64,000 nucleotides of DNA from Escherichia phage EC.W14-3. Shown one piece after another: positions 6,438 to 28,049 of this stretch. The stretch lies in sequence record PP496998.1. The stretch is one strand, 5' to 3'. The position numbers were made by a program, and so were the translations under genes. A model generated the notes under the pieces. That model had not been told where the DNA came from, searched no databases, and worked only from the letters and a program-made list of their open reading frames with translations. The first letter of the stretch is position 1. Each line of letters starts with the position of its first letter.

Positions 6438-6915
6438 AGAACCTGTAGTACATAAAGATTCTATCAGAGATCAATATAATGAGATGTTAAAGAAACAAGC
6501 TGATTCTAATCTTCGTTATCAGAGGATAGTAGAACAATCTAACTTTAAAGGTTTACTTGAATGGTAACTTATATCCTTTACTTTTTAGCTTTCTTAGGAA
6601 TAGTCTTTTTATCTATTCTTATTGAATTTGGTTTAAGTAAGTTAGTTAATTATTTAGGTAATAAGTAATTAATATTCTTTTAAATAGAGAATCAAAGTCC
6701 CTAGGAGTCCCTACAACCTAAATCAAGGATTCCTTAATTCTCTATTTTTATCTCGCAGGTGGCTCCTGCCCTTCGGTACTTGCAAGGGATTCTGTGAATT
6801 GCCCAATATACAAGCCTGCAATAACTTTATCAGCTATACAATATATACATTACTAGTGTGATATATCTACTACCAAAGATACTTATATTATATAGTACTC
6901 TTATCGGTATAAGCG

Positions 6916-6924
6916 TAATGTATA
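6916..6924 (+). promoter_or_regulatory. TAATGTATA motif, candidate phage-sigma-dependent promoter element upstream of the SSB gene
   Basis: exact 9-mer also found upstream of two minus-strand structural genes (17095..17103 and 33925..33933 as reverse complement). Confidence 0.4.
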
Positions 6925-6983
6925 CTATACATAACCGCTCAAAGAGAGCAACAATCTTTCAAATTAAATAAGGAAATTAAAAT

Positions 6984-7730
6984 ATGTCTATGATTCCAAC
7001 TATCGCAACCGCTTCCCGTAAATCCAACTACGATGTAATCCCTGATGGTGAGTACGAAGCACGTATCGTTCGTGTAGTAGGTTTGGGTGTTCACAATCGT
7101 GACCCTTGGATTGACCCGAAGACCAAAGCAGTGACTCCTAAGAATCCGGCTTTCCGTATGGATTTAGCTTTCGAGCTGATTGGTGTTGATGCTACTGGTA
7201 AAGATTCCGATGGTAAGGCATTAGAACCACGTCCAGCTTGCCAGTTCAAGAGCTATGATGTAAACCCACGAGCTAAGAACTCTGGTATTCTTGATCTTTG
7301 CAAGATGATTGACCCAAGTATTCAAGCACTGAAAGGTGATCTATCTTGGTTCAAGGATGTTCTGTTAGGTCAGCCTGTTAACATTCTGGTTAACTCTTAT
7401 ACTAACAAAGCTGGTGAAGTTAAAAACTCCATCAAGACCATTTCTCCAATCCCAACCAAATATCGTGCAGCAGTTGGTGAAGCTCGTAGTCCTCTGGTAT
7501 TCTTCGAACCATATGCTGAAACCGACGAGAACGTAGCATCCTACCAACTGATGTTCCCGTTCCAGCGCAACCTGCTTACTCAAGCTAATGACGCTAAGAA
7601 CATGCCTCTGGCTGGTCGTGAAATTACTCGTGCTTCTGAAACAGAGCAGAAAGAAGCTACTCCTTCAATCCCTACGATTGATAAAGAGCCTGCTTCTACT
7701 TACGAAGACGACAACGATAGCCCATTCTAA
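6984..7730 (+). CDS. single-stranded DNA-binding protein, T7 gp2.5-like (putative)
   Basis: acidic C-terminus ending in Phe (YEDDNDSPF) as in gp2.5-type SSBs; preceded by AT-rich region; followed by terminator. Confidence 0.45.
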   Translation: MSMIPTIATASRKSNYDVIPDGEYEARIVRVVGLGVHNRDPWIDPKTKAVTPKNPAFRMDLAFELIGVDATGKDSDGKALEPRPACQFKSYDVNPRAKNSGILDLCKMIDPSIQALKGDLSWFKDVLLGQPVNILVNSYTNKAGEVKNSIKTISPIPTKYRAAVGEARSPLVFFEPYAETDENVASYQLMFPFQRNLLTQANDAKNMPLAGREITRASETEQKEATPSIPTIDKEPASTYEDDNDSPF

Positions 7731-7751
7731 TAACTCTCCTTGTTATAGCTT

Positions 7752-7776
7752 AGCCACCTCCGGGTGGCTTTTTTCG
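7752..7776 (+). terminator. rho-independent terminator
   Basis: AGCCACC-TCCG-GGTGGCT followed by TTTTTT. Confidence 0.6.
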
Positions 7777-7787
7777 TTGGAGACAAC

Positions 7788-8138
7788 ATGCAAAACACAT
7801 TAAGTGATAACTTAGGGTTTATCGTTTTCTCAGCTCTTGTATTCTTTGGTGGTATGAAGTTTAACGAATATCAAACAGACAGCAGTAATCTGGACAAAGA
7901 GAAGCACCAGCAAGAGTTAGAGATTGAAAGAAGTAGAGCAGCTGATGAAGTTGCTCAGAGAGTTCTTACCGGTTTATCTAACTGGAAGAAGAACACAGAA
8001 ACCGTTTATAAAGAGATGCATTATGAGAAAACTAAACCAGTTTTTTATGATGTCTGCGCTAGTGATGACTATGTCCGCATGTTCAATGATCGACAGCAGC
8101 AGGCAATCAATGCCCTTACCAACAAACCTAAAAGCTGA
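7788..8138 (+). CDS. i-spanin (Rz-like) candidate
   Basis: N-terminal TM helix LGFIVFSALVFFGG then coiled-coil-like periplasmic region; an embedded lipoprotein ORF in the +1 frame. Confidence 0.5.
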   Translation: MQNTLSDNLGFIVFSALVFFGGMKFNEYQTDSSNLDKEKHQQELEIERSRAADEVAQRVLTGLSNWKKNTETVYKEMHYEKTKPVFYDVCASDDYVRMFNDRQQQAINALTNKPKS

Positions 8139-8282
8139 ATGCAGGGTTGACTTACCTTTTTTAGAGAGTGCTCAAGGAAAAGCACTAGCCACTACGTTGG
8201 AGTGGTATCAGGACCAGTACACAGAATGTGCTGCCAATCACAATGGATTGTTAGAAGCTCTGAAAGAGCGTGGAATAGAATA

Positions 8283-8283
<1 letters not shown>
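8023..8283 (+). CDS. o-spanin (Rz1-like lipoprotein) candidate, overlapping the Rz frame
   Basis: ATG inside the Rz gene in another frame; signal peptide ending in lipobox-like MSAC; extends past the Rz stop. Confidence 0.45.
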
Positions 8284-9769
<1,486 letters not shown>

Positions 9770-12634: not shown

Positions 12635-15600
12635 TCACTCCTTAGGTCGAACTCTTACACGGAGTCTCGATTGACGCTTACTGCGTTCAAGCTTCTCTGA
12701 CAATGAGCCACGTTTAATCTTAGGCTTCCCTTCGTCATTAAACTTCTCCAAGAACTGCAAGTACTCAGTACGATTTGTTGTCTTGTAAGAAGGAATCTTG
12801 ATATCAGGGTTCTCTTCAATCACACGTCTCATCTTCGCTACATCATCCCTACCAAGCAACTTACTCTTAGCCTGTTCAGCTGTAGAACCAAAGATCTTCT
12901 CCAGTGCTCTGGATTTGTTACCACCTGCGGAAGAAGCACCAAGTTTAGCAATGGCAGAGTAATCATCAGCACTAAACCAAGCTACTGGATTATCACCATA
13001 CTTCTTCTTGTTTTCAGCAGCAGTCTGCAATGCACGTACAAAGCGACGGTTGTTACCAGCCTTATCTGCACCATGAACCCTGTCTAAAACTTCAGCCACA
13101 CTAGCTAATTCATCCAAGCTCTTCCCGCTTAAGAAAGCTTTCTCTACTTTATCAGCAAAGACCTCTTCCTGTTGTTTAATGCTTTCCAAGATATCAGAAT
13201 TTGCTTGAGATTTTTCATCATCAGGTAGAGCAGAACGAATCTTCTCCATCTCCAATTCTTCCTCTTGCAGTTTCTTAATATCAGAGTCAACCTTCTGAGC
13301 CTCCTCAATAGCCTTCCTAGTATCCGCATCCAAGTTATCAAGCTTACCTTCAGTATCTCCAGTAACCTTAACAATCTCTTTCTCGATAGGAGTCATTGAT
13401 TCGTACTTCTTAGCAAACTTCTCAACATCAGCTTCGATACGAGAACGAGCATTCTGATGTTCAGTAGGAGTCATAGGTTTCTCAAGAAGTGCATAACGGT
13501 TGTCCATATAGGAACCAGCAAACGCTTCAGCATCCTCTCTAGATATGCCCTTATCTTCCATAGTACGCATCAGGCGGCGATGAATGTCATCACGTTGACG
13601 TTGTACTGCCATAAGATCATTCTCACGCTCTTGGGCCGCTTTAAGCTCTTCACTGCGCTTAACTCTCTTGTCCACATCAAACTTACGGTTCATCTCTTCC
13701 GCTTGCTCGTACATCTTGTTCCACTTGGCCTGACGAGCATCTTCCTCTGCATCAGTTAAACGACGCTGACGATCAAGGTAATCTGACTCGGCGTTGTGGA
13801 TACGTTCAATGTAACTACGGAACTTCTCTGGAGGAACTGGAGAGTTCTTGTCATGGTGAGCAGCCAACTGTTTCAATGTACGAGATTCCTGAGCCTCACG
13901 AACAGGTTTAGGTAAACCTTCCATCATCTTCTCAATCTCACTCTTCTGAGCTGCAATAGCCTCTAAAGTTTTACGTTCATTCTCAACAGCAGCCTTAGCA
14001 TCTGAACGAGCCTGAGCCTTTTTCCTGAGGGTAGCAAGACGTTCTTCACGAGCCTGTAAGTGCTTAGCAGCAGCTTCGTACTGAGAGTTCTTGTTAGCTT
14101 TGTTGAAGGCATTCACTTCTCTGTTGTAGGTGTTAATAAACCCATCCCAAATATCCTTCATCTGACCAACTTCCAAAGCCTCTTCCCTACCAGCCTTCTC
14201 TGAAGATTTAAACTTCCCATCTACAAAGTCATTCATCAGCTTACGCATAGCATCTTTCTGAGCAGGACGTAAAGGTTCTGAATCAATCAAAGCATCAATC
14301 TCAGACTGAAGCTCTTTCTTCTGATCAACCAGTTTAGGAGCATCTTTCTTATCGAAAGCTTTGTTCTCTTCTAGAGCTTGTTGGTACAGTCTATCAAACT
14401 CATCCTCACGCTGCTTCTGATACAACCTTTCAGCACGACGTTTCAGACTATCCAAGTTAGTTACGTTCCCACCTAAACCTTTCTCTTCAGCACGTAATGC
14501 CTTAGTAGCAATGTCTTCTGGCAGACCACGTTCTTTAACCCATTCAGCAAAATTAGTTCGTACAGTGTTGTTCTTAGCAGTAGCAATACCTTGCTGAGAG
14601 GCCAGCTGGTTACGAGCCATTTCTTCATGACGTTCAGTGTTGATAGCATTATCTTCCTGACGAATACGACGCATCAGTTCCTTAGGATCGCCTTTATAAG
14701 CCAAGAAGTTTTCAGCAGTAGCTTTAGCTTTAGCAGCCTTAGAGTACAGAGAACGAGCAAAGCGTTCTGCACGATCTTTAGTAGCCTGACGAGCAGCACT
14801 AGACATAGCAGCTAAACGTTCTACACCACTTGCCGGTTTAACGTCCTGTACAGCTTCCTTAGGAGCTTTAGGAGCACGAGCAGGTAACGGCTCAGCTTTG
14901 ACTGTTGGTTCCTCTACGGTTGGTTCTGGAGCCTGTGCGGCCTCTTCTTGAGCACGTTGCTGTTCCATTGCACGACGCTCCTCTAGAGGGTTACGAGCAG
15001 GGAGAGGTTCAGCCTGTGGAGCTTGTTCGACCGGAGCTTCTTGAGCTGCTGCTGCCTCTTCTTCAGCTCGACGCTGTTCAGCCTGACGGATAGCGCGTCT
15101 TTGCGCAACTAAATCACGAGCTGTGAGAGGGGTTTCTTGAGGAGTAGAAGAAGGAAGATTTTCTTCCGTCACAGTACTAGAAGAAGGCTCCCGAACCGGT
15201 TCGGTTTCCACGTCATTTTGCGTCTTAAATTTAATGTCATCAACAACTGGTTCTTCTTCCATCTTAGCACGAGCTTCATCAGCAGTAGATTTAGCACGAG
15301 CAACTTCCAAATCACCACGAGCCAGAGAGCGGATAGCTTCACTATTAGACTCTTGTTGCTTAACACGTTGAGAACGGGCACGCTGAGAAGAGAAGCGATT
15401 CAGAGCATATTTAGCAGCACCGAGAGTGTTCATCACCAGACTAGGAGAAGAAGCCTCACGGAATCCATCATCAGTCAAGGAAGTCCAACCACGATCTTGG
15501 TTGCTCATGAATTTAGCTGTATTGTTCAGAGTATAAGCATCTTGAATAGGATTAAAACCTTCAGGCATACCTTTCAGTTTCTTCAACCCACCAATAGCTT

Positions 15601-17056
15601 TCTTCATCTCTGGAGAAACATTATCAGCCATCTTCTGTAGTTCAGCAGCTTTCTCTACAAAGTTATTAAAGTCTTCGCCATCACGAGCTTTGAATCGATT
15701 TGCTTCATTGTAGAAAGTCTTGTAAGCATCAATGAAATCACGGTCGGCTTGTGTACGGTTCTTAATATCAATCGGACTACCAGTAAAATCACCAGAAGCT
15801 CGGAGAGAGGTTAATTCACGATCTAGATTATCTAGAACATCTGTAAGAGCTTTCGTGTTGTCTTTGGTGTAGTCAGCCATTGCATCCTTCATAGCAACAG
15901 CCTGCTTCTGGTTGTGCTCGTTATCAGCGAATGCTTTACCACGAGTCTTAGCAGGAGAAGCTAAAGGGTTGAGGCCCGGAATGTTGGAATGTTCTTTCTG
16001 AATGGAAGCAGCTTTCTCAGCACGAGCTTGGTCAGTATTAAGAATACGCTGAGCAGCAGGAGAGTCTACAGCAACAGCATCTGTAATACGGAATCCATTC
16101 TCATCCAGAAGGTTCAGAGCAGAAGCAGCGTTAGCAGTTTCAGCTTTAGAGTAAGCTTCTTTCAGTTCATCAATATTCTTAGCACTACGAATTAGTTCAT
16201 CATCAGCAGCAATATCAGTCTTCGCATACTCTGGAGTGTTCTTGAAGACAGTAGAATCCGGACGGTTAATCAAACCATGAACCCCACCAACTGCACCACC
16301 GAATGCAGCACCCATAGCACCTTCTTCGATAGCACCTTCTAATACATTAGCAAAGGTTGTATCATCTCCATGCTTGTTCTGAGCTTCAGCAGCACCTACA
16401 AGAGCGCCACCTTTAGCACCAGCCACTGCGTTAGTAGCAACGTTCTGACCAATACGTCCAAGTGTGGACTCAGCTGTACCAACAGCGCCCGGAAGGATTC
16501 TCTGAGCCGCATAGTTAGCACCACCAACTAAGGCTGCATCTAGAATAGATTTATCTTCCCCCTCTTCAGGGGTTTGGTCTGCATATGCACGACCTGTCTC
16601 ACGACCTGCGATGATAGCAGCAGCAGCCAATGGGTTAGCAACAGTCATACCAATATCACCAGCAACGCCAGCATACTGACCTACAGTTTTACCAATCCCA
16701 TCCTCAATCTTATCCATACGTTCTTTCAGAAGATTCTGAGAGTTCTCTTGGATACGCTTACCATAACTAGTTTGTGCTCCAGCTAGATTCTCACCAATCT
16801 CAACTAAACCACCAATACCTTTAGCAGCACTAGCTGCAATATTTGCACCACCAGATTGAAGAGCATTTGACACACCTTGAGCAAACTCACCTATAGCACC
16901 ACGTTCTTCTTGTTGTGGTTGTGCTACTGGCTGTTCCTCAGGAATAGAGCCACCTGCTGCCTTATATTGTTCTCTCATTTGAGCTTGTTGCTCCGGAGAG
17001 GCATTCAGATACGCAGGAGCTTTGGAAGCTTCTTCCCACGGTTTAATGTTAGCCAT
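12635..17056 (-). CDS. large internal virion / ejection protein (about 1473 aa)
   Basis: start placed at MANIK with AAGGAG upstream; Gly/Ala-rich N-terminus, long charged coiled-coil regions, internal repeats AEPLPAR; last gene of the structural block. Confidence 0.5.
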   Translation of the reverse strand: MANIKPWEEASKAPAYLNASPEQQAQMREQYKAAGGSIPEEQPVAQPQQEERGAIGEFAQGVSNALQSGGANIAASAAKGIGGLVEIGENLAGAQTSYGKRIQENSQNLLKERMDKIEDGIGKTVGQYAGVAGDIGMTVANPLAAAAIIAGRETGRAYADQTPEEGEDKSILDAALVGGANYAAQRILPGAVGTAESTLGRIGQNVATNAVAGAKGGALVGAAEAQNKHGDDTTFANVLEGAIEEGAMGAAFGGAVGGVHGLINRPDSTVFKNTPEYAKTDIAADDELIRSAKNIDELKEAYSKAETANAASALNLLDENGFRITDAVAVDSPAAQRILNTDQARAEKAASIQKEHSNIPGLNPLASPAKTRGKAFADNEHNQKQAVAMKDAMADYTKDNTKALTDVLDNLDRELTSLRASGDFTGSPIDIKNRTQADRDFIDAYKTFYNEANRFKARDGEDFNNFVEKAAELQKMADNVSPEMKKAIGGLKKLKGMPEGFNPIQDAYTLNNTAKFMSNQDRGWTSLTDDGFREASSPSLVMNTLGAAKYALNRFSSQRARSQRVKQQESNSEAIRSLARGDLEVARAKSTADEARAKMEEEPVVDDIKFKTQNDVETEPVREPSSSTVTEENLPSSTPQETPLTARDLVAQRRAIRQAEQRRAEEEAAAAQEAPVEQAPQAEPLPARNPLEERRAMEQQRAQEEAAQAPEPTVEEPTVKAEPLPARAPKAPKEAVQDVKPASGVERLAAMSSAARQATKDRAERFARSLYSKAAKAKATAENFLAYKGDPKELMRRIRQEDNAINTERHEEMARNQLASQQGIATAKNNTVRTNFAEWVKERGLPEDIATKALRAEEKGLGGNVTNLDSLKRRAERLYQKQREDEFDRLYQQALEENKAFDKKDAPKLVDQKKELQSEIDALIDSEPLRPAQKDAMRKLMNDFVDGKFKSSEKAGREEALEVGQMKDIWDGFINTYNREVNAFNKANKNSQYEAAAKHLQAREERLATLRKKAQARSDAKAAVENERKTLEAIAAQKSEIEKMMEGLPKPVREAQESRTLKQLAAHHDKNSPVPPEKFRSYIERIHNAESDYLDRQRRLTDAEEDARQAKWNKMYEQAEEMNRKFDVDKRVKRSEELKAAQERENDLMAVQRQRDDIHRRLMRTMEDKGISREDAEAFAGSYMDNRYALLEKPMTPTEHQNARSRIEADVEKFAKKYESMTPIEKEIVKVTGDTEGKLDNLDADTRKAIEEAQKVDSDIKKLQEEELEMEKIRSALPDDEKSQANSDILESIKQQEEVFADKVEKAFLSGKSLDELASVAEVLDRVHGADKAGNNRRFVRALQTAAENKKKYGDNPVAWFSADDYSAIAKLGASSAGGNKSRALEKIFGSTAEQAKSKLLGRDDVAKMRRVIEENPDIKIPSYKTTNRTEYLQFLEKFNDEGKPKIKRGSLSEKLERSKRQSRLRVRVRPKE

Positions 17057-17094
17057 AACGTCTCCTTTTATAAATAAAAATGTCCTACCCCCTA

Positions 17095-17103
17095 TATACA
17101 TTA
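17095..17103 (-). promoter_or_regulatory. TAATGTATA motif (reverse complement on plus strand), candidate phage-sigma promoter upstream of the 1473-aa gene
   Basis: exact 9-mer about 40 nt upstream of the start codon. Confidence 0.4.
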
Positions 17104-17123
17104 TAGAAGGCAGGACTTAGGTC

Positions 17124-18779
17124 TTATTGAGTAAACCAGCTAGTGTCTTCGACAGCTGATAAAGCACCATTGAGCTTAGGATTGGTTGCTGCACCACCAA
17201 CTGCTTCTTCTGCTTGTTCAGAGAAAACACCTAGAGGGTCATAGAAACCACCAGAAGGGATTGCACGGTTAACCAATGCAGTAGCTCTCTTCTTATCCAT
17301 ACCAGAACCGATGTAAGCTTCAATCGTAGCTCTCTTAGCATCAGCAACACCTTTCATTGCAGAGGTGTGACCAACGTTAGCTTGCTTACGAGCATAAGCA
17401 AGAGCAGAATCAGTAGGACGCCATCCAGATTTCAGTGCAAACTTGTTGCCAACACGAACGAAGATTGATGGGTCTTCTGCAAAGTGCCCCAAGTCTTCTT
17501 CGGTAAGAGAACGAGTAGCACCGATTTCAGCCCTTGCGGAGTTCATGATAGCCTGCATGTAAGCAGAACGAGCTGTCTGATAGTCTTTATCCTTAACAGC
17601 CTTATCAGCCAAATCCAAGTCTTTGTTAGACTGGTTAAACAGGCCACCTTTCTCTGCCCACTGCTTAGCAACCGTACCTTCAGCTGTATTCTGAGCAAGA
17701 CGAACTTCTTTCGGGTTAAAGTTAAAACTCTGAGCAGCTTGTTCAGCACGTTCAGCCTTAACCTTATCACGATAACCAATCAACTCTTTCTGACGTTCAA
17801 AGTTCATGTTAGCTCTTTCTTCAGCGGCACGACGAGTTTCATCAGCACGCTCACGCATAGTTTGCTCTTGAATCTGTTGACGTCTATCCCATTCAGCATT
17901 TTGTCGTTCTTCACGAGCAGCATACAACGCTTCTTTCTGAGCAGGGTCTACAGCTCTCATCTTCAGTAGAGATGGGTCTCCGTTAGCAATAGCAGCTGCA
18001 ATCGAGTCTTGAGAGAAGCCTTGTTCAATCAGAGCATCACGGTTAGCTTCCAGTTGCTTCTTAGTCTCATCTTGATTAGCCATTCCCTGACCAATCTGGA
18101 AAGCTTCAATAGGAGACTTACCTGACATAATGGAAAGACCTACACCCATCAAACCTGTGTAGAAACTAGAGTTCTGATAGAATGGTTCTTTCTGTAGCTT
18201 GTTCCAAGCTTCCGAAGGGTCTTTAGCTTTCGCAACTTGCAAGATATCATTGTTAACACGTTCCTGATCTTTAGCACGAGTAGCAGCAGCCATTCCATCA
18301 CCAGTATCTTGTCCTTGAGCAAGAGTATTAATCACACCTTGTGCCTGTTCCACCTGAGAAGGAGTAAACTCCATAGGACCAGCTTCTAACGGTTTAGTAG
18401 GAGGTGTTACCGGAAGAGGGTCACTAGGCATAAGCCCAGCATCCTGTAAACCTTGATCAGTGGATAGGTTAGGGTTAGACGCTACAGGGGCCGGTGCTCC
18501 AATATCAATACCTTGAAGACTTGTAGGAGTTCCTTGATTCTGCTGTTCCATAAGACGTTGCTGGAATCCCGGATTAACCATAGCAGTCTGATCTTCTTCT
18601 GCCTGAGAGACAAGACCCGCAAGAGATGAAGGTACAGCAGGACGTTGATACATAGAAATATCTGCTGTCTGAGTTGGTCTAGCCATATAAGGAGAGGCCG
18701 AAGCCGCTCCCGGATTAACACCATAGAAAGTATTTCTCGGGTCACGACTTCTGACCTGAGCGTAAGTTGTCTGTTGCAT
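17124..18779 (-). CDS. internal virion protein (putative)
   Basis: 551 aa; position among ejection-protein genes. Confidence 0.4.
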   Translation of the reverse strand: MQQTTYAQVRSRDPRNTFYGVNPGAASASPYMARPTQTADISMYQRPAVPSSLAGLVSQAEEDQTAMVNPGFQQRLMEQQNQGTPTSLQGIDIGAPAPVASNPNLSTDQGLQDAGLMPSDPLPVTPPTKPLEAGPMEFTPSQVEQAQGVINTLAQGQDTGDGMAAATRAKDQERVNNDILQVAKAKDPSEAWNKLQKEPFYQNSSFYTGLMGVGLSIMSGKSPIEAFQIGQGMANQDETKKQLEANRDALIEQGFSQDSIAAAIANGDPSLLKMRAVDPAQKEALYAAREERQNAEWDRRQQIQEQTMRERADETRRAAEERANMNFERQKELIGYRDKVKAERAEQAAQSFNFNPKEVRLAQNTAEGTVAKQWAEKGGLFNQSNKDLDLADKAVKDKDYQTARSAYMQAIMNSARAEIGATRSLTEEDLGHFAEDPSIFVRVGNKFALKSGWRPTDSALAYARKQANVGHTSAMKGVADAKRATIEAYIGSGMDKKRATALVNRAIPSGGFYDPLGVFSEQAEEAVGGAATNPKLNGALSAVEDTSWFTQ

Positions 18780-18792
18780 ATTTATCTCCTAA

Positions 18793-19761
18793 TTAAGTAC
18801 TAGCCAACCCACCGATTACACCCCCAGCTAATGCACCCCAAGGCCCAAAGGAAGAGCCAGCTGCTGCACCACTCATAGCTCCACCAAGGAAACCACCTTT
18901 GCCACCAGATGTTTTAGTAGTTGTAGTTTGTCCGAGAGCACCGTTAAGTACACCTGCTGCACCGAGTTGGTTATTGATATCTTGCCATCCCCAATTAGCT
19001 GCGTTCTGAGCATTCTGGTAGGCATTATCATATTCATTCTGTTGTTGCTGTTGTTGCTGCAACCCTGCATTCCATTGATTCATTATTTGCTGTTGAGACA
19101 AATTAGCACCCTGCTGACCTAGGTTAGAAAGGTTAGAACCAATATTAGAAAGACCAGAGAGAGCAGCTGCCTGATTCTGTCTATTACCAGAGAGGATGCT
19201 TTCAGCTTGGCTAATAGCCGAGTTATAGGCACTATTGGTAATATCTGTTGCTTGGCCTTGCATCTGATTCAGAGCATCACCTTGGGCAAAAGACTTAGCC
19301 ATACGAGCACCTGAACCTTGTTGACCAGCAAACTGTTGAGCTAACTGAGGAAGAGCATTACGTGCCAAGTTCTGTTGAACCTGTTCATTATTAGCTGTAA
19401 TGGCTGCTTGCACAGCGTCATCATCATACAGTTGACCAGCGAGAGCACCAATCTGCTCTCCAGTAATCCCACCTTGTCCAGAGAGGCTCTGATAACCTTT
19501 ATAGGCATTATCTAGATAACCCAAGCCTTGACCTGCTGCATCCATATACTGCTGTGAGAGAGTACCTAGAGCGCCAGATTGTGCTAGGTTGTTAAGTGCC
19601 TCTGTCTGATTGTTATTAAACCCTACATTGTCACGATAAACATAATCCCCTGAACTAGTATTACCAATCTGTTGGTTAAGCTGGTCAATATACTGTTGAA
19701 TGTATTCAGGGCGAATCATTTGGGAAGTAGTTTTACTACCCCCGCCTCCGAAAAGTCCCAT
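18793..19761 (-). CDS. Gln/Asn/Gly-rich virion protein, paralog of 19774..20826
   Basis: low-complexity Q/N-rich composition, N-terminal GLFGGGG and Gly-rich hydrophobic C-terminus shared with neighbour. Confidence 0.4.
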   Translation of the reverse strand: MGLFGGGGSKTTSQMIRPEYIQQYIDQLNQQIGNTSSGDYVYRDNVGFNNNQTEALNNLAQSGALGTLSQQYMDAAGQGLGYLDNAYKGYQSLSGQGGITGEQIGALAGQLYDDDAVQAAITANNEQVQQNLARNALPQLAQQFAGQQGSGARMAKSFAQGDALNQMQGQATDITNSAYNSAISQAESILSGNRQNQAAALSGLSNIGSNLSNLGQQGANLSQQQIMNQWNAGLQQQQQQQNEYDNAYQNAQNAANWGWQDINNQLGAAGVLNGALGQTTTTKTSGGKGGFLGGAMSGAAAGSSFGPWGALAGGVIGGLAST

Positions 19762-19773
19762 ATCAAATCTCCT

Positions 19774-20826
19774 TTAGTTTGCTCCAAATGCCCCTAAGAC
19801 ACCACCTAAGATATTACTACCTGCTGTGGATAACCAGTTAGACTGACCTTTCTGTTGAGAAAGATTAGAACCACCAATCATAGGACCAGCCATTCCAGAT
19901 TGCCCACCTGAGTTGTTATAGGAACTCCAAGCATTCTGAGTCTGTTGATTAGGAGAGAAAGCACCCATACGACCTGCAATACCTAATCCAGTGATACCAG
20001 CACCTAGGAGCTGTTGTCCAGTATTAACCCCCGGAGCAGCATTCTTAATCGTGTACCCAGCCATTGGGCTTACACTATTTAATACATTAAGTTGGTTGTT
20101 AAGCTGATTCCACCTATACTGTTGAGAGCCAATAGCGTTCTGCCAATTAATATCAGCTTGAGCTTGGGCTTGTTGCTGTTGTAGATTACCAGCCATGAGT
20201 TGATTCTGGATAGCTTGTTGAGTTGCCTGAACACCTTGAGCACCAAGATTGAGATTCTGTCCAGCCAATCCTGACTGAGCACCAAGTAAGCCCCTCTGGA
20301 AGTTTTGGTCTTGTTGAAGAGCACTGATTCCCATATTCTTGCCACTGATAGTACGAGCTAAGTTTGTATTAGCACTGTTCAGAGCAGCACCTTGAGCAGC
20401 AGCTCTACGGAGAGAGCCTGAATCAGAACCATTTCCGAGGGATACATTGGAAGCTGCCTTACTAGTCGCTTGAGCAAGAGCTGAGTTATTCAATCCTTTA
20501 CTAAAGTTATTAACACCATCAGCAGTTAGACCACCACCATTGACAATATTCTGATACTGCTGTGCAAGAGAGTTTAATTGGTCCAACCCTTGCTGTGTAC
20601 GAGGCGTGTACATATCAGCCAATTGCTTCTGAGTAGTAGAAGCTGCTAAGTTGTTCAGAGCACCCTGTTGGTTGCCATTAAACCCAGCCAGTTGTTGGGA
20701 GATGAATCCCGGATCGTTGTTCTGCATATTCTGAGCATTAGCAACAATCTGCTTCAGCAGGGCATCAACCTGAGAGGAAGGGGCCACTGTGGTTTTGCTA
20801 GAAGCTGATTTTCCAAATAAAGACAT
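19774..20826 (-). CDS. Gln/Asn/Gly-rich virion protein, paralog of 18793..19761
   Basis: same composition and termini as neighbour (MSLFGKSAS ... GVLGAFGAN). Confidence 0.4.
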   Translation of the reverse strand: MSLFGKSASSKTTVAPSSQVDALLKQIVANAQNMQNNDPGFISQQLAGFNGNQQGALNNLAASTTQKQLADMYTPRTQQGLDQLNSLAQQYQNIVNGGGLTADGVNNFSKGLNNSALAQATSKAASNVSLGNGSDSGSLRRAAAQGAALNSANTNLARTISGKNMGISALQQDQNFQRGLLGAQSGLAGQNLNLGAQGVQATQQAIQNQLMAGNLQQQQAQAQADINWQNAIGSQQYRWNQLNNQLNVLNSVSPMAGYTIKNAAPGVNTGQQLLGAGITGLGIAGRMGAFSPNQQTQNAWSSYNNSGGQSGMAGPMIGGSNLSQQKGQSNWLSTAGSNILGGVLGAFGAN

Positions 20827-20845
20827 AAGTCCTCCTTAAAGATTA

Positions 20846-21628
20846 TTACTTTACACCAATGCTAGCCAGACGTCTGAGCACTGCTTGTGTTTGTGGACTG
20901 TACTGAGAACCTGCTGCATGTGGTGCACTTGCCCTCTGAACTGTTTGAGAAGTGGGAGGTTTACCAGCAAGCATAGCAGCTACCCCTAATACTGCATTAC
21001 CAAAGTTCTGTTGAGGTTTCTGATTTTCGCCTTCCTGCACTTCATCAGAGTAAAACTCTACTGGATTTCCACCTAAAGCACCTGTCTTAGAAGCAGCAAT
21101 CTCTGCCTGAGTTGGAGCTTGTGCGGCCTTCTCTCTATCTAACAAGTCAGGACTAAACTGATTGACTGGTTGAACAGCTTGCAAAGCTCCAACAGGGTTA
21201 GCAATCTGAGAAGCTGCATCACCATAGAAAGGAAGAAAGTGTTTATTGTTCATGGAGTCAAGAGCTTGTGGAGTAAACCCCTTTTTACCAGCGAACATTT
21301 GCTTAGCTCCACCGATACCTTCTGAATAACCAACCATTGCTTTCTTAACATCACCATTAAAAGCTTTTAAGTTATCTCTTATGTAACGAGCGCCCATATC
21401 AATATTCTTTGCTGGGTCAAGTCTATCTTCTAGTTTGTAACCGTAATCTTTAGCCAACCCTTTACTGATCTGCATTAAACCTACAGGACCAGTTCCAGAG
21501 GCCACTGTAGGACGACCACTGGACTCTCTTTGGATGACAGCATGAATCAAAGCAGCAGGAATCCCATACTTCTTTGAAGCTTGCTGTACCATTGGGTCTA
21601 GTTCTTCGATACCCATTCTGATTGCCAT
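20846..21628 (-). CDS. lytic transglycosylase (SLT domain), virion-associated
   Basis: SLT motif QRESSGRP...GLMQIS with the catalytic Glu context; sits within the internal virion protein genes. Confidence 0.7.
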   Translation of the reverse strand: MAIRMGIEELDPMVQQASKKYGIPAALIHAVIQRESSGRPTVASGTGPVGLMQISKGLAKDYGYKLEDRLDPAKNIDMGARYIRDNLKAFNGDVKKAMVGYSEGIGGAKQMFAGKKGFTPQALDSMNNKHFLPFYGDAASQIANPVGALQAVQPVNQFSPDLLDREKAAQAPTQAEIAASKTGALGGNPVEFYSDEVQEGENQKPQQNFGNAVLGVAAMLAGKPPTSQTVQRASAPHAAGSQYSPQTQAVLRRLASIGVK

Positions 21629-21637
21629 AATATCTCC

Positions 21638-22672
21638 TTATTGTATACTCCTGAATATCTTTCTAGCATCTAATATTGGAATACTTAACCCGAGGGCACC
21701 ACCCCCTCCTAAATCATATTGACTACTCCAAGAGTAAATCATCCTTCCGAAACCTGTACCGAAAGAAGAGCCATTCATCATGTGAGATCTTGTGTGTTGA
21801 AAATACCAACCACTAGCCTTGCCTCTTATTGCTCCTGCTCCGTAAGATAGTGGTATCATTGGATAGGCCAGAGATGTGTTACCGCCACTCATAGGCATAA
21901 ATCCCTCAACACTAAAAGGGGTTCTATATGTAGAAAATACACACTGAGACCCATTTGGAGAGAAGATATTTAAACCACCATTGTGGGTTGGTACTCCAGA
22001 ACCATCACAGAAGACGGCAATTCTAACACCACCAATGTATCCTGTTTGGTTTGTGTTACCATTATCATGAGACCTGTTCTGGTACACATAAACAACCCTA
22101 TTGGATGGATTGTATAGCAGCCCTGCTCCACCGTTACTCCAATTCGCGTAGACAGTTGCTCGGCTCATATCAAAACCACCAATATCTGGTATTTGAAGAG
22201 AACCATTTATGTCACCCTCCCAAGCCCAAATACATTGACCAACAACCCCAGAATCGGATATTGAGAAATAGTCAGCAGAGTTGGAGAATGTGATTCCATA
22301 ATTCCTGTTAGCTCTAGGCCATATTTGATACACATTAAAAGCCATATCAAATACCCAACCGTTTACATTATAGTCCATAGTAACTCTGAAGGTTGAGTTA
22401 TTAATAACAGATATATCCGTTATCCAATACACATCAGACGTTACGTTAGGAGGTATGTATCTCTCCCAAACAACAGACCCTGTTGGAACTACAACTATCT
22501 GACCACTACCATCCCAACCACTTATAGGCAAGTCACAGGTATTTCCACTAAAAGAGAAATTCCCACTGACTCTATTTCTGAGTTGAGGGAATGTGCTACC
22601 ACTATCGATGTAAATATCAGCAGGTGCCGCTGGACCCGGACCAACCGGGCGTGTCCATATTCCATATGCCAT
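21638..22672 (-). CDS. virion structural protein (putative)
   Basis: 344 aa; position only. Confidence 0.35.
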   Translation of the reverse strand: MAYGIWTRPVGPGPAAPADIYIDSGSTFPQLRNRVSGNFSFSGNTCDLPISGWDGSGQIVVVPTGSVVWERYIPPNVTSDVYWITDISVINNSTFRVTMDYNVNGWVFDMAFNVYQIWPRANRNYGITFSNSADYFSISDSGVVGQCIWAWEGDINGSLQIPDIGGFDMSRATVYANWSNGGAGLLYNPSNRVVYVYQNRSHDNGNTNQTGYIGGVRIAVFCDGSGVPTHNGGLNIFSPNGSQCVFSTYRTPFSVEGFMPMSGGNTSLAYPMIPLSYGAGAIRGKASGWYFQHTRSHMMNGSSFGTGFGRMIYSWSSQYDLGGGGALGLSIPILDARKIFRSIQ

Positions 22673-22673
22673 G

Positions 22674-23708
22674 TTACCAACTCCCTATTCTTATGCGAAG
22701 AGTTCCACTCCCATCATAAAAATCTATTCTATTACCATTCATCCACAACTGAGAACCACCTGTACCACCCATAACAAAATCACCACCAACAGTAAGTCTC
22801 CAGTTAGAACCCCACATAGAACCAGCAGTGATTTTATCCGCTGATAAGTTCTGAATCTGAGCATTGGAGATAGATACGTTATCAATCTGTGCCCATTGGA
22901 TCCTAGCGTTGGCAATCTGAGCAGTTGTGATGTTGACGTTCTTTATGTCAGCGAATTCCATCCTAGCTCGCCCACCCTCAAATACGAAGGGGGTATTCCC
23001 AGAGCTGCCATCACCAACAATAAATTTGTTAGCTGTTACTTGGAATTGACTGTTTGTTCCGTTGTTAGTTAACTTGACCCCAGCATATCTTCCGTTGACT
23101 GTAGAGTTAACACCCCACGTAGCTTCATACTCAGAGAGTTTCATATACTGAGAAAGGCTTCCGTTGATATTTTGCAGTTCTGTCTGAACAAGAGCAATCT
23201 CTTGACCTTGATCGTTAACAATACCTTCTACTGTCTGAATTTTAGTTGTGTTACCTTCGATGCTGGTCTTAAAACCAGATACAGTGCTTTCTAGCTTCAC
23301 AGGGGGTTGAACAGAATTATCCCAAATGTCCTCAGTGGACAGGTTCCCCATCTGGGTTTGGATATCTGCAATAGCTGTTTCTATCTCTGTAGTAATTCTA
23401 TTCTCAAGCTCATCAAATTGTAGATTCATTGCATTAAGAGCTTTAATACGAACATCAATCTCTTCGTGAATTTCATCTATAGCTTGGAACATTTGGTTAG
23501 TAGCTGTGCTAACTTTTTGTAATTCATCATACACGGCTACGTTATATGTTTCTGTGTCCTGTACATTATTGAGAAACCCAACGTTGTACGGGAGTGTGGT
23601 GTTGTTGCGACCAGTGTTCTTACGAAAACCACCTGCACCCATAAGTTCCTCCAAAACAATAAAAGGGGCACGAAGCCCCTTGTTGTTATCTCCGCCCGCC
23701 AACAGCAA
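22674..23708 (-). CDS. tail fibre-like structural protein
   Basis: coiled-coil segment then repeat-like NVSISNAQIQNLSADKI stretch. Confidence 0.4.
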   Translation of the reverse strand: MLLAGGDNNKGLRAPFIVLEELMGAGGFRKNTGRNNTTLPYNVGFLNNVQDTETYNVAVYDELQKVSTATNQMFQAIDEIHEEIDVRIKALNAMNLQFDELENRITTEIETAIADIQTQMGNLSTEDIWDNSVQPPVKLESTVSGFKTSIEGNTTKIQTVEGIVNDQGQEIALVQTELQNINGSLSQYMKLSEYEATWGVNSTVNGRYAGVKLTNNGTNSQFQVTANKFIVGDGSSGNTPFVFEGGRARMEFADIKNVNITTAQIANARIQWAQIDNVSISNAQIQNLSADKITAGSMWGSNWRLTVGGDFVMGGTGGSQLWMNGNRIDFYDGSGTLRIRIGSW

Positions 23709-26703: not shown

Positions 26704-26712
26704 AATTCCTCC

Positions 26713-27516
26713 TTAGCTAATACGTCTCCAAATGTGAGCTGCTCTGAATGGTGGCAAAGTGTTAATAGGTTGACGAGAGATATCATCACGACCAAGACTT
26801 ACACTACCAGAGATTGTATGAGTGTGAGTATCATTATCAGTTCTCTGACTGTATCCACCACCCGGACTATACCAGTTTGGCGAGCTGTTATGACCACTAG
26901 CATCTCCACGACCAAATACCATGTTGTGACTGTGAGTATTACTGGATAGAGAGAAGCTGGAGCCATTAACTGTCATCAAAGGTACGTTCTCAGTTCGAAT
27001 AGTATTGAAGACACGACCACCAGTACCACCTGCTTGGAACTCAACTCTCTGAGCATTAGGGACAGAACCATCAGGGTTTACTACACCAGTACCCATGATA
27101 ACACCAGTCACTTTAGCCCAAGAGCCAAACCCTAAGGAGATGGAATCACCGGGGTTAATATCTTCTTCAGTGATGTAGTAAGAACCAATTCGATAGAGCT
27201 TATTCTCCATCCAGTTCTTCATGAACGCTTCCATCTGGCCTTTAGTAACAACATCCTTGTCACCAGTTCCCGGAGTAACGTTCTTGATCATAAGACCACC
27301 AACATCCATTGAATCACCAGTAAACTTGAGCTTCTCTGACATAATCTTAAAGGTGTCAGAATCTATATCAACTGGTTCTGTAACATTGGGGAATGTGTTC
27401 TGTAACGTTTGTTTAATGAGGCGGATTTGAGCCGCCCCTTCGTAGATGTAATCCCTGTCTCTAGGATAGAGCGGGTTTAAGTCGGTAATAACTACCGCAT
27501 TAGTTTCGATAGCCAA
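26713..27516 (-). CDS. tail-associated structural protein (putative)
   Basis: 267 aa, Gly/Ser-rich; position between the Ig-repeat protein and lysozyme. Confidence 0.35.
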   Translation of the reverse strand: MAIETNAVVITDLNPLYPRDRDYIYEGAAQIRLIKQTLQNTFPNVTEPVDIDSDTFKIMSEKLKFTGDSMDVGGLMIKNVTPGTGDKDVVTKGQMEAFMKNWMENKLYRIGSYYITEEDINPGDSISLGFGSWAKVTGVIMGTGVVNPDGSVPNAQRVEFQAGGTGGRVFNTIRTENVPLMTVNGSSFSLSSNTHSHNMVFGRGDASGHNSSPNWYSPGGGYSQRTDNDTHTHTISGSVSLGRDDISRQPINTLPPFRAAHIWRRIS

Positions 27517-27528
27517 AAGGCACCTCCA

Positions 27529-28020
27529 TTAATATTTACCTTCGGTGTAAAGATTAGCTTCTGCAACTCTTCTATTATGAAGACCCTGACTTCTCTGCTT
27601 CTCTCCCTTGACCGTTATTTTATCCCAACGAAGAAATTCGGAATAAACATCCCCCTTAACATCTCCATTGATTACCTTCCTTAACTTAGATGTGCTCAAA
27701 GCCCCACTGCCAACATTGAAGTTGAAAGAAGTGAGTGCATCAAACTCATGAACTAGTAAAGGAACCTTTATGTTCTTCTGAGTAGCACGAACAGAGTCTT
27801 GTGTGTCTCTATCTAGCAGAGCTAGACAATCCTCTATAGAATACGTTAATCCTTGTCTAACCGGATAACCATTCATATCGCGCGTAGCCCCTACACATAT
27901 AGTCCAGATACCTGCGGAATCTTTATAAGCCTTGGTTCTCATACCCTCATGCTTCATGATGAATTCCATTCCAGCTGGGCTTAAGTTTAATTGTACAGGT
28001 GGCAATGCGGCGTTATCCAT
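27529..28020 (-). CDS. lysozyme, glycoside hydrolase family 24 (T4/lambda-R-like)
   Basis: KHEGMRTKAYKDSAGIWTICVGAT catalytic region; no signal or SAR sequence. Confidence 0.75.
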   Translation of the reverse strand: MDNAALPPVQLNLSPAGMEFIMKHEGMRTKAYKDSAGIWTICVGATRDMNGYPVRQGLTYSIEDCLALLDRDTQDSVRATQKNIKVPLLVHEFDALTSFNFNVGSGALSTSKLRKVINGDVKGDVYSEFLRWDKITVKGEKQRSQGLHNRRVAEANLYTEGKY

Positions 28021-28049
28021 TTCTAACCTCCTTTTGTAGTCCCTTTAAA

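What the first reader, a model, noticed from the sequence alone, without database searches (positions are those of the whole stretch)
7788..8283. Lysis functions are dispersed: spanin pair in the replication module, lysozyme inside the tail-gene block, third hydrolase in the early region
The Rz/Rz1-like overlapping pair (7788..8283) sits between the SSB and macro-domain genes. The GH24 lysozyme (27529..28020) and a small hydrophobic protein (28050..28268) lie between tail-fibre genes about 20 kb away. A SleB-like hydrolase is at 49698..50087 and an SLT transglycosylase at 20846..21628. No canonical holin-endolysin-spanin cassette is present. The GH24 enzyme may be the endolysin or a virion-associated entry enzyme, and the holin is unidentified.
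Basis: partly seen in the sequence, partly recalled or inferred. Interest (0 to 1): 0.4.

Follow-up and report, generated by a model that had tools for sequence, protein, structure and literature searches.

The report
Kuravirus lysis genes, split but ordinary
The window is a known phiEco32-like (Kuravirus) coliphage whose host-bursting genes sit in two places: a holin-lysozyme pair among the tail genes, and a two-part outer-membrane "spanin" 20 kb away among replication genes. This layout is real but already annotated for the genus and is common in virulent phages.

Summary
The window is the last 64 kb of Escherichia phage EC.W8-1 (Kuravirus, phiEco32-like; 100% identity).

- **Spanins:** 7788..8138 is an i-spanin. 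8023..8283 is an overlapping o-spanin with a valid lipoprotein signal (Cys20).
- **Holin and endolysin:** 28268..28050 and 28020..27529 (- strand) form an adjacent putative class III holin and soluble GH24 endolysin pair inside the late tail operon.
- **SLT protein:** 21628..20846 is a virion ejection protein. In SU10 it is present in virions and lost on genome release. The lysozyme and holin were not among the proteins identified in the SU10 proteomics.
- **SleB-like hydrolase:** 49698..50087 is an early-region gene, also conserved in the sister family Grimontviridae.

No three-part cassette exists in the window, nor is one annotated in the remaining 12.4 kb of the genome. It is the only membrane protein in the late arm, though untested.

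The same layout is already annotated for phage Paul and catalogued by Kongari et al. 2018. T4 also has unlinked spanins.

Small additions: most GenBank records, including this phage's own, truncate the o-spanin and lose its signal. Both lysis units sit directly behind terminator-like hairpins.

The parts
6916..6924 (+). P40: exact copy of the phage-sigma (gp36) promoter element TAATGTATA. It is the middle-class promoter upstream of the SSB-like gene and the nearest promoter upstream of the spanins.
   Evidence: Exact motif match. P40 is listed as a middle gp36-dependent promoter in phiEco32-subgroup phages (PMC8948821 text and Table S3; SU10 paper).
6984..7730 (+). SSB-like OB-fold protein (phi32_40 homologue) with the acidic C-terminal tail ...EDDNDSPF.
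7752..7774 (+). Intrinsic-terminator-like hairpin (7-bp GC-rich stem, 4-nt loop, T5 run), 13 nt before the i-spanin start codon.
   Evidence: Terminator scan. RNA fold -13.7 kcal/mol, z -2.9. Identical in phiEco32 and Paul. Annotated as a terminator in phage Paul.
7788..8138 (+). i-spanin (Rz-like; phi32_39 homologue), 116 aa. N-terminal TMD at residues 8-23, a predicted long periplasmic helix, and an invariant Cys90.
   Evidence: phrog_1152, 5.6e-37. Hydropathy. AF2 helices 3-77 and 93-111, at low confidence. Alignment. 32% identity to the i-spanin in the canonical lysis cassette of phage Sasha.
8023..8283 (+). o-spanin (Rz1-like; phi32_38 homologue), 86 aa, in the +1 frame and overlapping the i-spanin gene by 116 nt. 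Lipoprotein signal with lipobox MSAC, Cys20 and Ser at +2. Periplasmic Cys40 and Cys69 are invariant.
Evidence: Lipobox rule passed; the GenBank start at 8110 fails it. phrog_2425, 1e-25. tblastn aligns from residue 1-2 in 305 phage records, many annotated o-spanin.
8283..8723 (+). Macro-domain (Appr-1-p processing) protein. It is the downstream neighbour and not part of lysis.
   Evidence: PF01661, 3.3e-11.
33925..33933 (-). P13: exact gp36 late promoter element heading the tail-gene operon that contains the holin and endolysin.
   Evidence: PMC8948821 Table S3.
28341..28358 (-). GC-rich hairpin (AAGCCCC-TTCG-GGGGCTT, then TTTTAGG) immediately after the tail-fibre gene and 73 nt upstream of the holin start.
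   Evidence: Sequence. Fold -12.6 kcal/mol. A hairpin is conserved at this position in phiEco32, Paul, SU7 and a distant metagenomic relative.
28050..28268 (-). Putative class III holin (phi32_16 homologue), 72 aa. One hydrophobic segment (residues 6-29) and a highly conserved 43-aa C-terminal part with two invariant Cys.
   Evidence: phrog_11161 'holin', 2.8e-50. Hydropathy. Only TM-grade protein in the late arm. Always directly upstream of the lysozyme, even in relatives at about 40-58% identity. Alignments.
27529..28020 (-). Soluble GH24 (T4-lysozyme-type) endolysin (phi32_17 homologue), 163 aa. Catalytic Glu25/Asp34/Thr40. No signal or SAR segment.
   Evidence: PF00959, 3.7e-32. PDB endolysins 8app and 7m5i, E 1e-27 and 4e-25. 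Aligns with T4 lysozyme E11/D20/T26. Maximum 19-residue hydropathy 0.82. Not detected in SU10 particles.
20846..21628 (-). SLT lytic transglycosylase: an internal virion/ejection protein (phi32_22 = SU10 gp20), used at entry rather than at lysis.
   Evidence: PF01464, 1.2e-23. Matches the N-terminal transglycosylase of T7 gp16, E 1.6e-8. Detected in SU10 particles. Ejected on genome release (PMC9509320).
49698..50087 (+). SleB/CwlJ-type cell-wall hydrolase domain protein (phi32_117 homologue), 129 aa, in the early region. No export signal. The N-terminal YYEAG motif with the presumed catalytic Glu9 is retained.
   Evidence: PF07486, 1.7e-7, above cutoff. Conserved in Kuravirus and in Grimontviridae (GAP52 'putative endolysin', Privateer 'hydrolase'). 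Shared-gene table in PMC8948821.

Best explanation
This is the ordinary, genus-typical lysis system of a Kuravirus (phiEco32-like podophage), encoded in two unlinked units plus two peptidoglycan hydrolases with other roles.

1. Entry. The SLT protein (20846..21628) is packaged in the head and ejected with the DNA to cut peptidoglycan. This is shown in SU10.

2. Middle phase (inferred). The phage-sigma promoter P40 (6916) drives the SSB-like gene. Transcripts that read through the hairpin terminator at 7752..7774 carry the i-spanin and o-spanin genes, the macro-domain gene and the sigma gene. There is no room for a promoter between the terminator and the i-spanin start, so spanin dosage is presumably set by read-through. 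The i-spanin anchors in the inner membrane by its N-terminal TMD. The o-spanin is exported, lipidated at Cys20 and, with Ser at +2, sorted to the outer membrane. The complex spans the periplasm and stays inert while the murein is intact. That is why early synthesis and lack of linkage to the other lysis genes cost nothing.

3. Late phase (inferred). The P13 tail operon carries the 72-aa single-TMD holin candidate and the soluble GH24 endolysin, again just behind a hairpin. The holin accumulates in the membrane and the endolysin in the cytoplasm. Holin triggering releases the endolysin, murein is degraded, and the spanins then disrupt the outer membrane.

4. The SleB-like early-region hydrolase has no export signal and is conserved far beyond the genus. 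Its role is unknown.
For: - Identity: 100% to EC.W8-1/EC.W2-6 and 96-98% to phiEco32 and SU10.
- Family assignments.
- o-spanin lipobox. LipoP note on the Paul orthologue. Full-length alignment in 305 phages.
- Homologous spanins sit inside a canonical holin-endolysin-spanin cassette in phage Sasha.
- phiEco32 spanins are already listed in Kongari 2018.
- P40 is a middle promoter; P13 is a late promoter.
- Terminator.
- The holin candidate is the only TM protein in the late arm and is always adjacent to the lysozyme.
- Virion data.
- No other lysis genes are annotated in the rest of the genome.
Against: - No Kuravirus lysis protein has been tested functionally in the papers I could search.
- The holin call rests on position and topology only. 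Its hydrophobic segment is 46% Gly/Ala/Ser/Thr. It contains a conserved Ser-x-Ala at residues 21-23 that could be a signal-peptidase site. Its C-terminal part is more conserved than its TMD.
- The i-spanin model has low confidence (pLDDT 63), and a crude heptad test was not significant (115 of 2000 shuffles).
- The expression class of genes 38/39 could not be read directly, because the phiEco32 papers are not held.
- Terminator read-through is inferred, not measured.
Confidence: 0.8

Rival explanations
1. The 72-aa 'holin' (28050..28268) is not the hole-former. It would be a Sec-exported or SAR-type (signal-anchor-release) small periplasmic protein, for example an antiholin-like lysis regulator. 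The true holin would be one of the uncharacterised small membrane proteins elsewhere, such as the 2-TMD 85-aa ORF at 54365..54622 or the 2-TMD 59-aa phi32_66 homologue outside the window.
For: - The hydrophobic segment is weakly hydrophobic and 46% G/A/S/T.
- Ser21-x-Ala23 is conserved in all relatives, including those at about 40-54% identity, and fits the -3/-1 rule for signal peptidase I (the rule is from general knowledge).
- The C-terminal 35 residues and two Cys are nearly invariant, as expected for a folded periplasmic domain.
- The cytoplasmic N-terminus is only 5 residues.
- The family has no relatives outside Kuravirus-like phages in 1.8 billion representatives, so 'holin' is annotation by position only.
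- Other 2-TMD small proteins exist.
Against: - It is the only TM-grade protein in the late transcription arm.
- It lies 29 nt upstream of a soluble endolysin that needs a holin, in every relative found.
- One distant homologue lacks any N-terminal positive charge, which is poor for a Sec signal.
- The alternative candidates are in early or middle regions and have no lysis-family match.
- Center for Phage Technology curators call it a class III holin.
Confidence: 0.15
2. The SleB-like hydrolase (49698..50087) is the ancestral or principal endolysin of this phage lineage. The holin-GH24 pair would be a later insertion into the tail operon that is redundant or accessory.
For: - The gene is shared between Kuravirus and the sister-family phages 7-11, GAP52 and Privateer.
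- 7-11 and GAP52 lack the holin and GH24 genes (SU10 paper) and annotate this gene as 'putative endolysin'.
- It is at least 99% identical in 62 records, indicating strong constraint.
- The holin-GH24 pair is bracketed by a hairpin and sits between tail genes like an inserted module.
Against: - It lies in the early arm with no adjacent membrane protein. Its downstream neighbours in GAP52 and Privateer are soluble.
- Privateer has a separate endopeptidase endolysin as well as this gene, so the gene persists regardless of endolysin type.
- The Pfam score is modest (32 bits).
- The GH24 enzyme has an intact catalytic triad and a strong ribosome-binding site.
Confidence: 0.1
3. The 7788..8283 pair is not a spanin but an unrelated membrane-protein and lipoprotein pair of the replication or host-takeover module, for example a superinfection-exclusion function.
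For: - It is located in the middle-gene module, away from the endolysin.
- There are no Pfam or NCBIfam hits.
- A coiled coil was not formally demonstrated.
Against: - Homologous i-/o-spanin pairs lie in a canonical lysis cassette in Sasha.
- PHROG Rz-like spanin match at 5.6e-37.
- All sequence hallmarks are met: TMD, lipobox, overlapped +1 frame, conserved periplasmic Cys.
- Listed as spanins by Kongari 2018.
- No other spanin candidate exists in the genome.
Confidence: 0.03

Closest known systems
Escherichia phage Paul (MN045231) and phiEco32 (NC_010324) lysis gene set: CPT_Paul_014/015/020/035/036; phi32_16/17/22/38/39
   Same: Same genes in the same order and positions. Holin class III and endolysin glycosidase lie between tail genes. 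There is an internal virion transglycosylase. An 86-aa o-spanin (LipoP SpII 19|20) overlaps the i-spanin downstream of a terminator and the phi32_40 homologue. A 'cell wall hydrolase' lies in the early arm. The o-spanin is 93-94% identical.
   Different: Nothing of substance. The window's own record (PQ030848) labels both spanins and the holin 'hypothetical' and truncates the o-spanin to 57 aa.
Two-component spanins of the overlapped architecture: lambda Rz/Rz1 as prototype; Kongari 2018 i-spanin family 'JH2' and o-spanin family NJ01/ECBP2/KBNP1711/PhiEco32
   Same: Type II inner-membrane protein with a helical periplasmic domain, plus an outer-membrane lipoprotein encoded in the +1 frame. Both have periplasmic cysteines. 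phiEco32 is listed explicitly.
   Different: The Rz1-equivalent extends beyond the Rz-equivalent (overlapped) rather than being fully embedded as in lambda. The i-spanin is short (116 aa, like T4 PseT.3 at 117 aa). The pair is not adjacent to the holin and endolysin.
Phage T4 lysis gene organisation (t, e, pseT.3/pseT.2 dispersed)
   Same: Holin or endolysin and spanin genes are unlinked in a virulent phage (PMC6139136, Fig. 8 legend). The holin is a single-TMD class III type by annotation.
   Different: In T4 the holin and endolysin are also unlinked from each other; here they are adjacent. The T4 holin has a large periplasmic domain and known antiholins; here it has 43 residues and no known partner.
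Salmonella phage Sasha lysis cassette (holin-endolysin-membrane protein-i-spanin-o-spanin)
   Same: Homologous spanin pair: i-spanin 32% identity, E 8e-18; o-spanin about 33%; SPII cleavage 19-20.
   Different: In Sasha the pair is part of a contiguous cassette. In the window it has been separated from the holin and endolysin.
T7 gp16 N-terminal lytic transglycosylase (internal core/ejection protein)
   Same: SLT domain at the N-terminus of a head-internal protein that is ejected to cross the murein.
   Different: Here it is a separate 260-aa protein rather than the N-terminus of a 1318-aa core protein.

Membership tests
Two-component spanin (i-spanin/o-spanin) | i-spanin has a single N-terminal transmembrane domain (type II, N-in/C-out) | tested here: met
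   A 16-residue uncharged stretch at residues 8-23, with 15-residue hydropathy 2.23. It is conserved in homologues. TMpred places the TMD at 8-23 on the Paul orthologue. Orientation itself was not tested.
Two-component spanin (i-spanin/o-spanin) | i-spanin periplasmic domain is alpha-helical with coiled-coil character | tested here: inconclusive
   AF2 predicts helices 3-77 and 93-111 but at mean pLDDT 63. A crude heptad a/d test was reached by 115 of 2000 shuffles. No COILS-type tool was available.
Two-component spanin (i-spanin/o-spanin) | o-spanin has a lipoprotein signal peptide with lipobox and an outer-membrane sorting residue | tested here: met
   The PS51257-style rule is met (R2/K3; MSALVMTMSAC; Cys20), and Ser is at +2. 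The lipobox and Cys are conserved while the signal sequence diverges in SU7. LipoP gives SpII 19|20 on the 93%-identical Paul protein.
Two-component spanin (i-spanin/o-spanin) | o-spanin gene is embedded in, overlapping or adjacent to the i-spanin gene | tested here: met
   116-nt overlap in the +1 frame, i.e. the overlapped architecture.
Two-component spanin (i-spanin/o-spanin) | Periplasmic cysteine(s) for intermolecular disulfides | tested here: met
   i-spanin Cys90 is invariant. o-spanin Cys40 and Cys69 are invariant.
Two-component spanin (i-spanin/o-spanin) | Required for outer-membrane disruption at lysis | not testable with these tools
   Needs genetics (lambda Rz/Rz1 complementation or phage knockouts).
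Canonical contiguous lysis cassette (holin-endolysin-spanin, lambda-type) | All three functions are adjacent in one transcription unit | tested here: not met
   Spanins lie at 7788..8283 (+), behind the middle promoter P40. Holin and endolysin lie at 28268..27529 (-), in the late P13 operon. No cassette is annotated in the rest of the genome.
Holin (class III, single TMD) | Small membrane protein with at least one TMD, encoded next to the endolysin and expressed late | tested here: met
   72 aa with one hydrophobic segment at 6-29. It lies 29 nt upstream of the endolysin in the late arm and is the only TM-grade protein there. This synteny is kept in distant relatives.
Holin (class III, single TMD) | Forms lethal membrane holes that release the endolysin, triggered by energy poisons | not testable with these tools
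   No experimental report was found. The possibility of a SAR or cleavable signal is not excluded.
GH24 / T4-type phage lysozyme endolysin | Phage_lysozyme fold with a Glu-8x-Asp-5x-Thr catalytic triad | tested here: met
   PF00959, 3.7e-32. Glu25/Asp34/Thr40 align with T4 E11/D20/T26. PDB endolysins match at E 1e-27.
GH24 / T4-type phage lysozyme endolysin | Cytoplasmic (no SAR or signal), hence holin-dependent, and not a virion component | tested here: met
   Maximum 19-residue hydropathy is 0.82. It was not among the 34 proteins detected in SU10 particles, although both flanking gene products were.
Virion-borne lytic transglycosylase (ejection protein) | SLT domain protein that is present in virions and released on ejection | tested here: met
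   PF01464, 1.2e-23. T7 gp16 N-terminal domain match, 1.6e-8. The SU10 orthologue was detected and is lost from genome-release intermediates.
SleB/CwlJ cell-wall hydrolase (Pfam Hydrolase_2) | Domain match above the curated threshold, with the N-terminal catalytic Glu motif | tested here: met
   PF07486 at 32.2 bits against a cutoff of 27. The YYEAG motif at residues 7-11 is visible in the sequence. Identifying the catalytic Glu rests on general knowledge of the family. There is no PDB sequence hit.

The most novel reading that the evidence does not exclude
The annotated Kuravirus 'holin' may not be the hole-forming protein. It could be a signal-anchor-release or signal-peptidase-cleaved periplasmic protein with a disulfide-bonded 49-residue domain that regulates lysis. 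In that case the real holin of this widely used therapeutic phage genus would be unknown. Alongside this, the early-region SleB-like hydrolase shared with Grimontviridae could be the lineage's ancestral endolysin.
Probability: 0.12. Interest if true: 0.45.

Novelty: already known. Interest (0 to 1): 0.12.

Why it matters
It matters little for discovery. The layout is genus-typical, annotated in phage Paul, catalogued in the 2018 spanin survey and paralleled by T4.

There are practical points.
- Kuraviruses are used in phage-therapy work, yet most of their GenBank and RefSeq records miss or truncate the o-spanin. This includes the record of this very phage. Automated screens would therefore wrongly score them as lacking a lipoprotein spanin component.
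- No functional test of the holin was found, and its sequence is atypical.
- The genus carries a second conserved murein hydrolase of unknown role.

Both lysis units lying directly behind hairpins suggests dosage control by read-through. This is cheap to test with existing RNA-seq methods.

Tried and rejected
- **Family and structure searches.** Pfam and NCBIfam gave nothing for either spanin or the holin. Only PHROGs did. PDB sequence searches found nothing for the SSB-like and SleB-like proteins.
- **Missing papers.** The two primary phiEco32 papers (PMC2587145, PMC3275717) are not held. The macroarray class of genes 38/39 and the phiEco32 virion MS could not be read. I relied on later papers that summarise them.
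- **Promoter motif.** TAATGTATA with one mismatch is not enriched over chance (20 found, 20.6 expected). I therefore trusted only the matches at positions known from the literature: three exact copies plus P6, which is the published TAATGTAgA variant. The one-mismatch copy TAATATATA abutting the holin ribosome-binding site (28281..28289) was rejected as a promoter, because a start 6-8 nt downstream would fall inside the Shine-Dalgarno sequence.
- **SAR endolysin.** The 'SAR-endolysin' label in phage MN03 was rejected. There is no N-terminal hydrophobic segment.
- **Hidden holins next to the SleB-like gene.** The small genes downstream of it in GAP52 and Privateer were checked and are soluble.
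- **Other small membrane ORFs.** These were scanned against PHROGs and none has a lysis annotation. Many TM-like ORFs from the six-frame scan are nested in larger genes and were dismissed.
- **Holin relatives.** A profile search of 1.8 billion representatives found no relatives outside Kuravirus-like tail-lysozyme loci.
- **Heptad test.** The home-made heptad test on the i-spanin was inconclusive.
Full report
**Identity of the window.** A 2.5-kb stretch around the finding and a 1.7-kb stretch around the lysozyme are each 100% identical to Escherichia phages EC.W8-1 (PQ030848) and EC.W2-6. They are 96-98% identical to phiEco32, SU10 and about 95 other Kuravirus records. The coordinate offset shows that the window is the last 64 kb of the 76,408-bp EC.W8-1 record. 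Gene-by-gene mapping to phiEco32 gives:
- i-spanin = phi32_39
- o-spanin = phi32_38
- SSB-like = phi32_40
- macro = phi32_37
- holin = phi32_16
- endolysin = phi32_17
- SLT = phi32_22
- SleB-like = phi32_117

**Check of the observation.** All ORFs exist at the stated coordinates.
- 7788..8138 matches PHROG 1152 'Rz-like spanin' (5.6e-37).
- The overlapping +1-frame ORF, read from the ATG at 8023, matches PHROG 2425 (1e-25).
- Pfam confirms Phage_lysozyme (3.7e-32), SLT (1.2e-23), Hydrolase_2/SleB-type (1.7e-7, above the curated cutoff) and Macro (3.3e-11).
- The 72-aa hydrophobic ORF matches PHROG 11161 'holin' (2.8e-50).

The lipoprotein part passes.
- From the 8023 start the protein begins MRKLNQFFMMSALVMTMSAC. 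This satisfies a PROSITE PS51257-style rule: K/R in the first seven residues, no charge in the six residues before the box, and Cys at position 20. Ser follows at +2.
- The 93%-identical orthologue in phage Paul carries the curators' note 'SpII cleavage 19|20, LipoP score 18'.
- In the 66%-identical SU7 protein the signal sequence has diverged, but the positive N-terminus, hydrophobic core, lipobox and Cys are kept.
- tblastn with the 86-aa form aligns from residue 1-2 in 305 phage records (Felixounavirus, Mooglevirus, Sashavirus, Erwinia phages), many annotated o-spanin.

The i-spanin has a 16-residue uncharged N-terminal segment and an invariant Cys90. Its AlphaFold model has helices 3-77 and 93-111 separated by a conserved loop, but confidence is low (pLDDT 63). 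My crude heptad test is not significant. Helicity is therefore indicated, and a coiled coil is not formally shown.

Context supplies the strongest functional argument. In Salmonella phage Sasha the homologous pair (i-spanin 32% identical, E 8e-18) is the last part of a contiguous cassette: holin, endolysin, membrane protein, i-spanin, o-spanin. Kongari et al. 2018 list PhiEco32 in both an i-spanin and an o-spanin family.

**Holin, endolysin and the other hydrolases.**
- *Position.* The 72-aa gene and the GH24 gene are separated by 29 nt, each with a good Shine-Dalgarno sequence. They sit between tail-fibre and tail genes in the late arm. Published genus descriptions say so explicitly (PMC7881722; PMC9965538; PMC4281155).
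- *Endolysin.* It aligns with T4 lysozyme so that Glu25, Asp34 and Thr40 match E11, D20 and T26. It has no hydrophobic N-terminus, so it is a soluble, holin-dependent enzyme. The 'SAR-endolysin' label in one record is wrong.
- *Virion association.* SU10 mass spectrometry detected the products of the genes on both sides (CDS13, CDS16) and the SLT protein (CDS20; 9 peptides, 39.6% coverage). It did not detect the lysozyme, the holin or the spanins.
- *SLT.* Siborova et al. 2022 showed that SU10 gp20-24 are present in virions and absent after genome release. They name gp20 as the transglycosylase that degrades murein at entry. The SLT domain matches the N-terminus of T7 gp16.

GH24 is the endolysin and SLT is the entry enzyme.

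**Is the holin really identified?** Only by inference.

For:
- It is the only protein in the whole late arm (12635..42700, - strand) with a transmembrane-grade hydrophobic window.
- It is glued to the lysozyme in all 98 phage records and in metagenomic relatives down to about 40% identity.

Against, or at least unusual:
- The family exists nowhere else (23 clusters; 3 extra relatives among 1.8 billion representatives).
- The hydrophobic segment is 46% Gly/Ala/Ser/Thr.
- Ser21-x-Ala23 is conserved throughout and could be a signal-peptidase site.
- The C-terminal 35 residues, with two invariant cysteines, are more conserved than the membrane segment.

I keep a 15% rival that it is an exported or SAR-type periplasmic regulator. 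No experimental test was found.

**Transcription context.** Phage-sigma (gp36) promoters have the element tAATGTAtA. They lie before phiEco32 genes 6, 13 and 26 (late) and 40, 58 and 68 (middle). In the window the corresponding copies are:

| Position | Strand | Promoter | Match |
|---|---|---|---|
| 6916 | + | P40 | exact |
| 33925 | - | P13 | exact |
| 17095 | - | P26 | exact |
| 41340 | - | P6 | TAATGTAGA |

The spanins lie behind P40 and the SSB-like gene. They are separated from it by a strong terminator-like hairpin at 7752..7774 (-13.7 kcal/mol plus a U run). The hairpin is identical in phiEco32 and Paul and is annotated as a terminator in Paul. Only 13 nt separate it from the i-spanin ATG, so spanin mRNA must arise by read-through. 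This is inference. The next promoter-like site, a sigma-70-like TGGACA-18-TATAAT at 8695..8724, serves the sigma gene (consistent with the SU10 paper).

The holin-endolysin pair is likewise preceded by a conserved hairpin at 28341..28358.

Because spanin complexes are inert until the murein is removed (established lambda biology), middle-phase synthesis is harmless. This explains why linkage is dispensable.

**The rest of the genome.** The 12.4 kb outside the window encodes primase/helicase, polymerase subunit, dCTP deaminase, ThyX, PhoH and small hypotheticals. The full phiEco32 annotation contains no further lysis gene.

**The SleB-like hydrolase.** It is at least 99% identical in 62 Kuravirus records. 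It is also present, at 31-36% identity, in GAP52, 7-11-like phages and Privateer of the family Grimontviridae. 7-11 and GAP52 lack the holin and GH24 genes and label this gene 'putative endolysin'. Privateer has it in addition to a separate endopeptidase endolysin. It has no signal sequence and no adjacent membrane protein. Its role is open. I give 10% to the idea that it is the ancestral endolysin.

**Comparison with known systems and novelty.** Functionally this is a standard holin / soluble endolysin / two-component spanin system plus a T7-gp16-like ejection transglycosylase. It fails the membership test for a contiguous lambda-type cassette, but so do T4 and the related Mooglevirus Sf13. 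The identical layout, including the correct 86-aa o-spanin, the i-spanin TMD, the terminator, the class III holin and the cell-wall hydrolase, is already annotated for phage Paul. Verdict: already known.

The incremental points are these.
- The o-spanin is truncated to 57 aa, losing its signal and lipobox, in phiEco32 RefSeq, SU10, ShigP1 and the window's own record, where both spanins are 'hypothetical'.
- Both lysis units lie directly behind hairpins.
- The holin assignment is untested and atypical.

Noticed in passing
window 53394..53693 (+): A 99-aa protein with a signal peptide and the classic lipobox ALTGC (Cys22) plus six further cysteines. It is the phi32_106 homologue, 'putative phage lipoprotein', and lies in the early region next to the tRNA gene. 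It could be a superinfection-exclusion lipoprotein; this is untested. PHROG 4281, unknown function.
   Followed up: partly
window 50287..50583 (+): A 98-aa protein with an N-terminal transmembrane segment and a charged, helix-like C-terminal part. It is annotated 'DNA helicase' in GenBank and PHROG 12154, which looks like a propagated misannotation. It lies 200 nt downstream of the SleB-like gene.
   Followed up: partly
window 54365..54622 (+); L003 9106..9285 (+) (outside the window, phi32_66 homologue): Two small proteins with two transmembrane segments each (85 aa and 59 aa). This is a holin- or pinholin-like topology, and the first segment of the 59-aa protein is Gly/Ala-rich. Neither has a functional annotation.
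   Followed up: partly
window 28309..28317 (-): The block GTAATGAAA, about 45 nt upstream of the holin ATG and downstream of the hairpin, is invariant in five aligned Kuravirus-like loci, including a distant metagenomic one. It resembles the gp36 promoter element tAATGTAtA at 6 of 9 positions. It might be a dedicated weak promoter for the holin-endolysin pair.
   Followed up: no
window 6835..6934 and 17082..17116: Four full or near copies of the gp36 promoter element cluster around P40, including an exact copy on the opposite strand at 6844..6852. The P26 element lies inside a 15-bp hairpin.
   Followed up: no
window 53178..53253 (+): tRNA-Arg (anticodon TCT) found by ARAGORN. The paper describing the phage EC.W2-6 (100% identical over the two stretches compared) states that there are no tRNA genes (PMC11670814).
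   Followed up: yes
window 8283..8723 (+); L015 5278..6072: The spanin pair is followed by a macro-domain gene here. In Mooglevirus Sf13 a homologous macro gene (26% identity, E 8e-10) lies about 1 kb downstream of the homologous spanins. This suggests the block moved between virulent phage lineages as a unit.
   Followed up: partly
L005 26006..26419 (SU10), corresponding to window about 7730..7788: SU10 carries an HNH homing endonuclease inserted exactly between the SSB-like gene and the i-spanin, at the terminator site. SU7 has a different extra gene there.
   Followed up: no
L009 3121..3669 (Cronobacter phage GAP52): Two genes downstream of the GAP52 SleB-like 'putative endolysin' is a 182-aa lipoprotein (MRKIAIIGACIGSMFLLGC, with Asp at +2) that has a helix-like body. 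It may be relevant to how 7-11/GAP52-type phages, which lack the GH24-holin pair, lyse their hosts.
   Followed up: no
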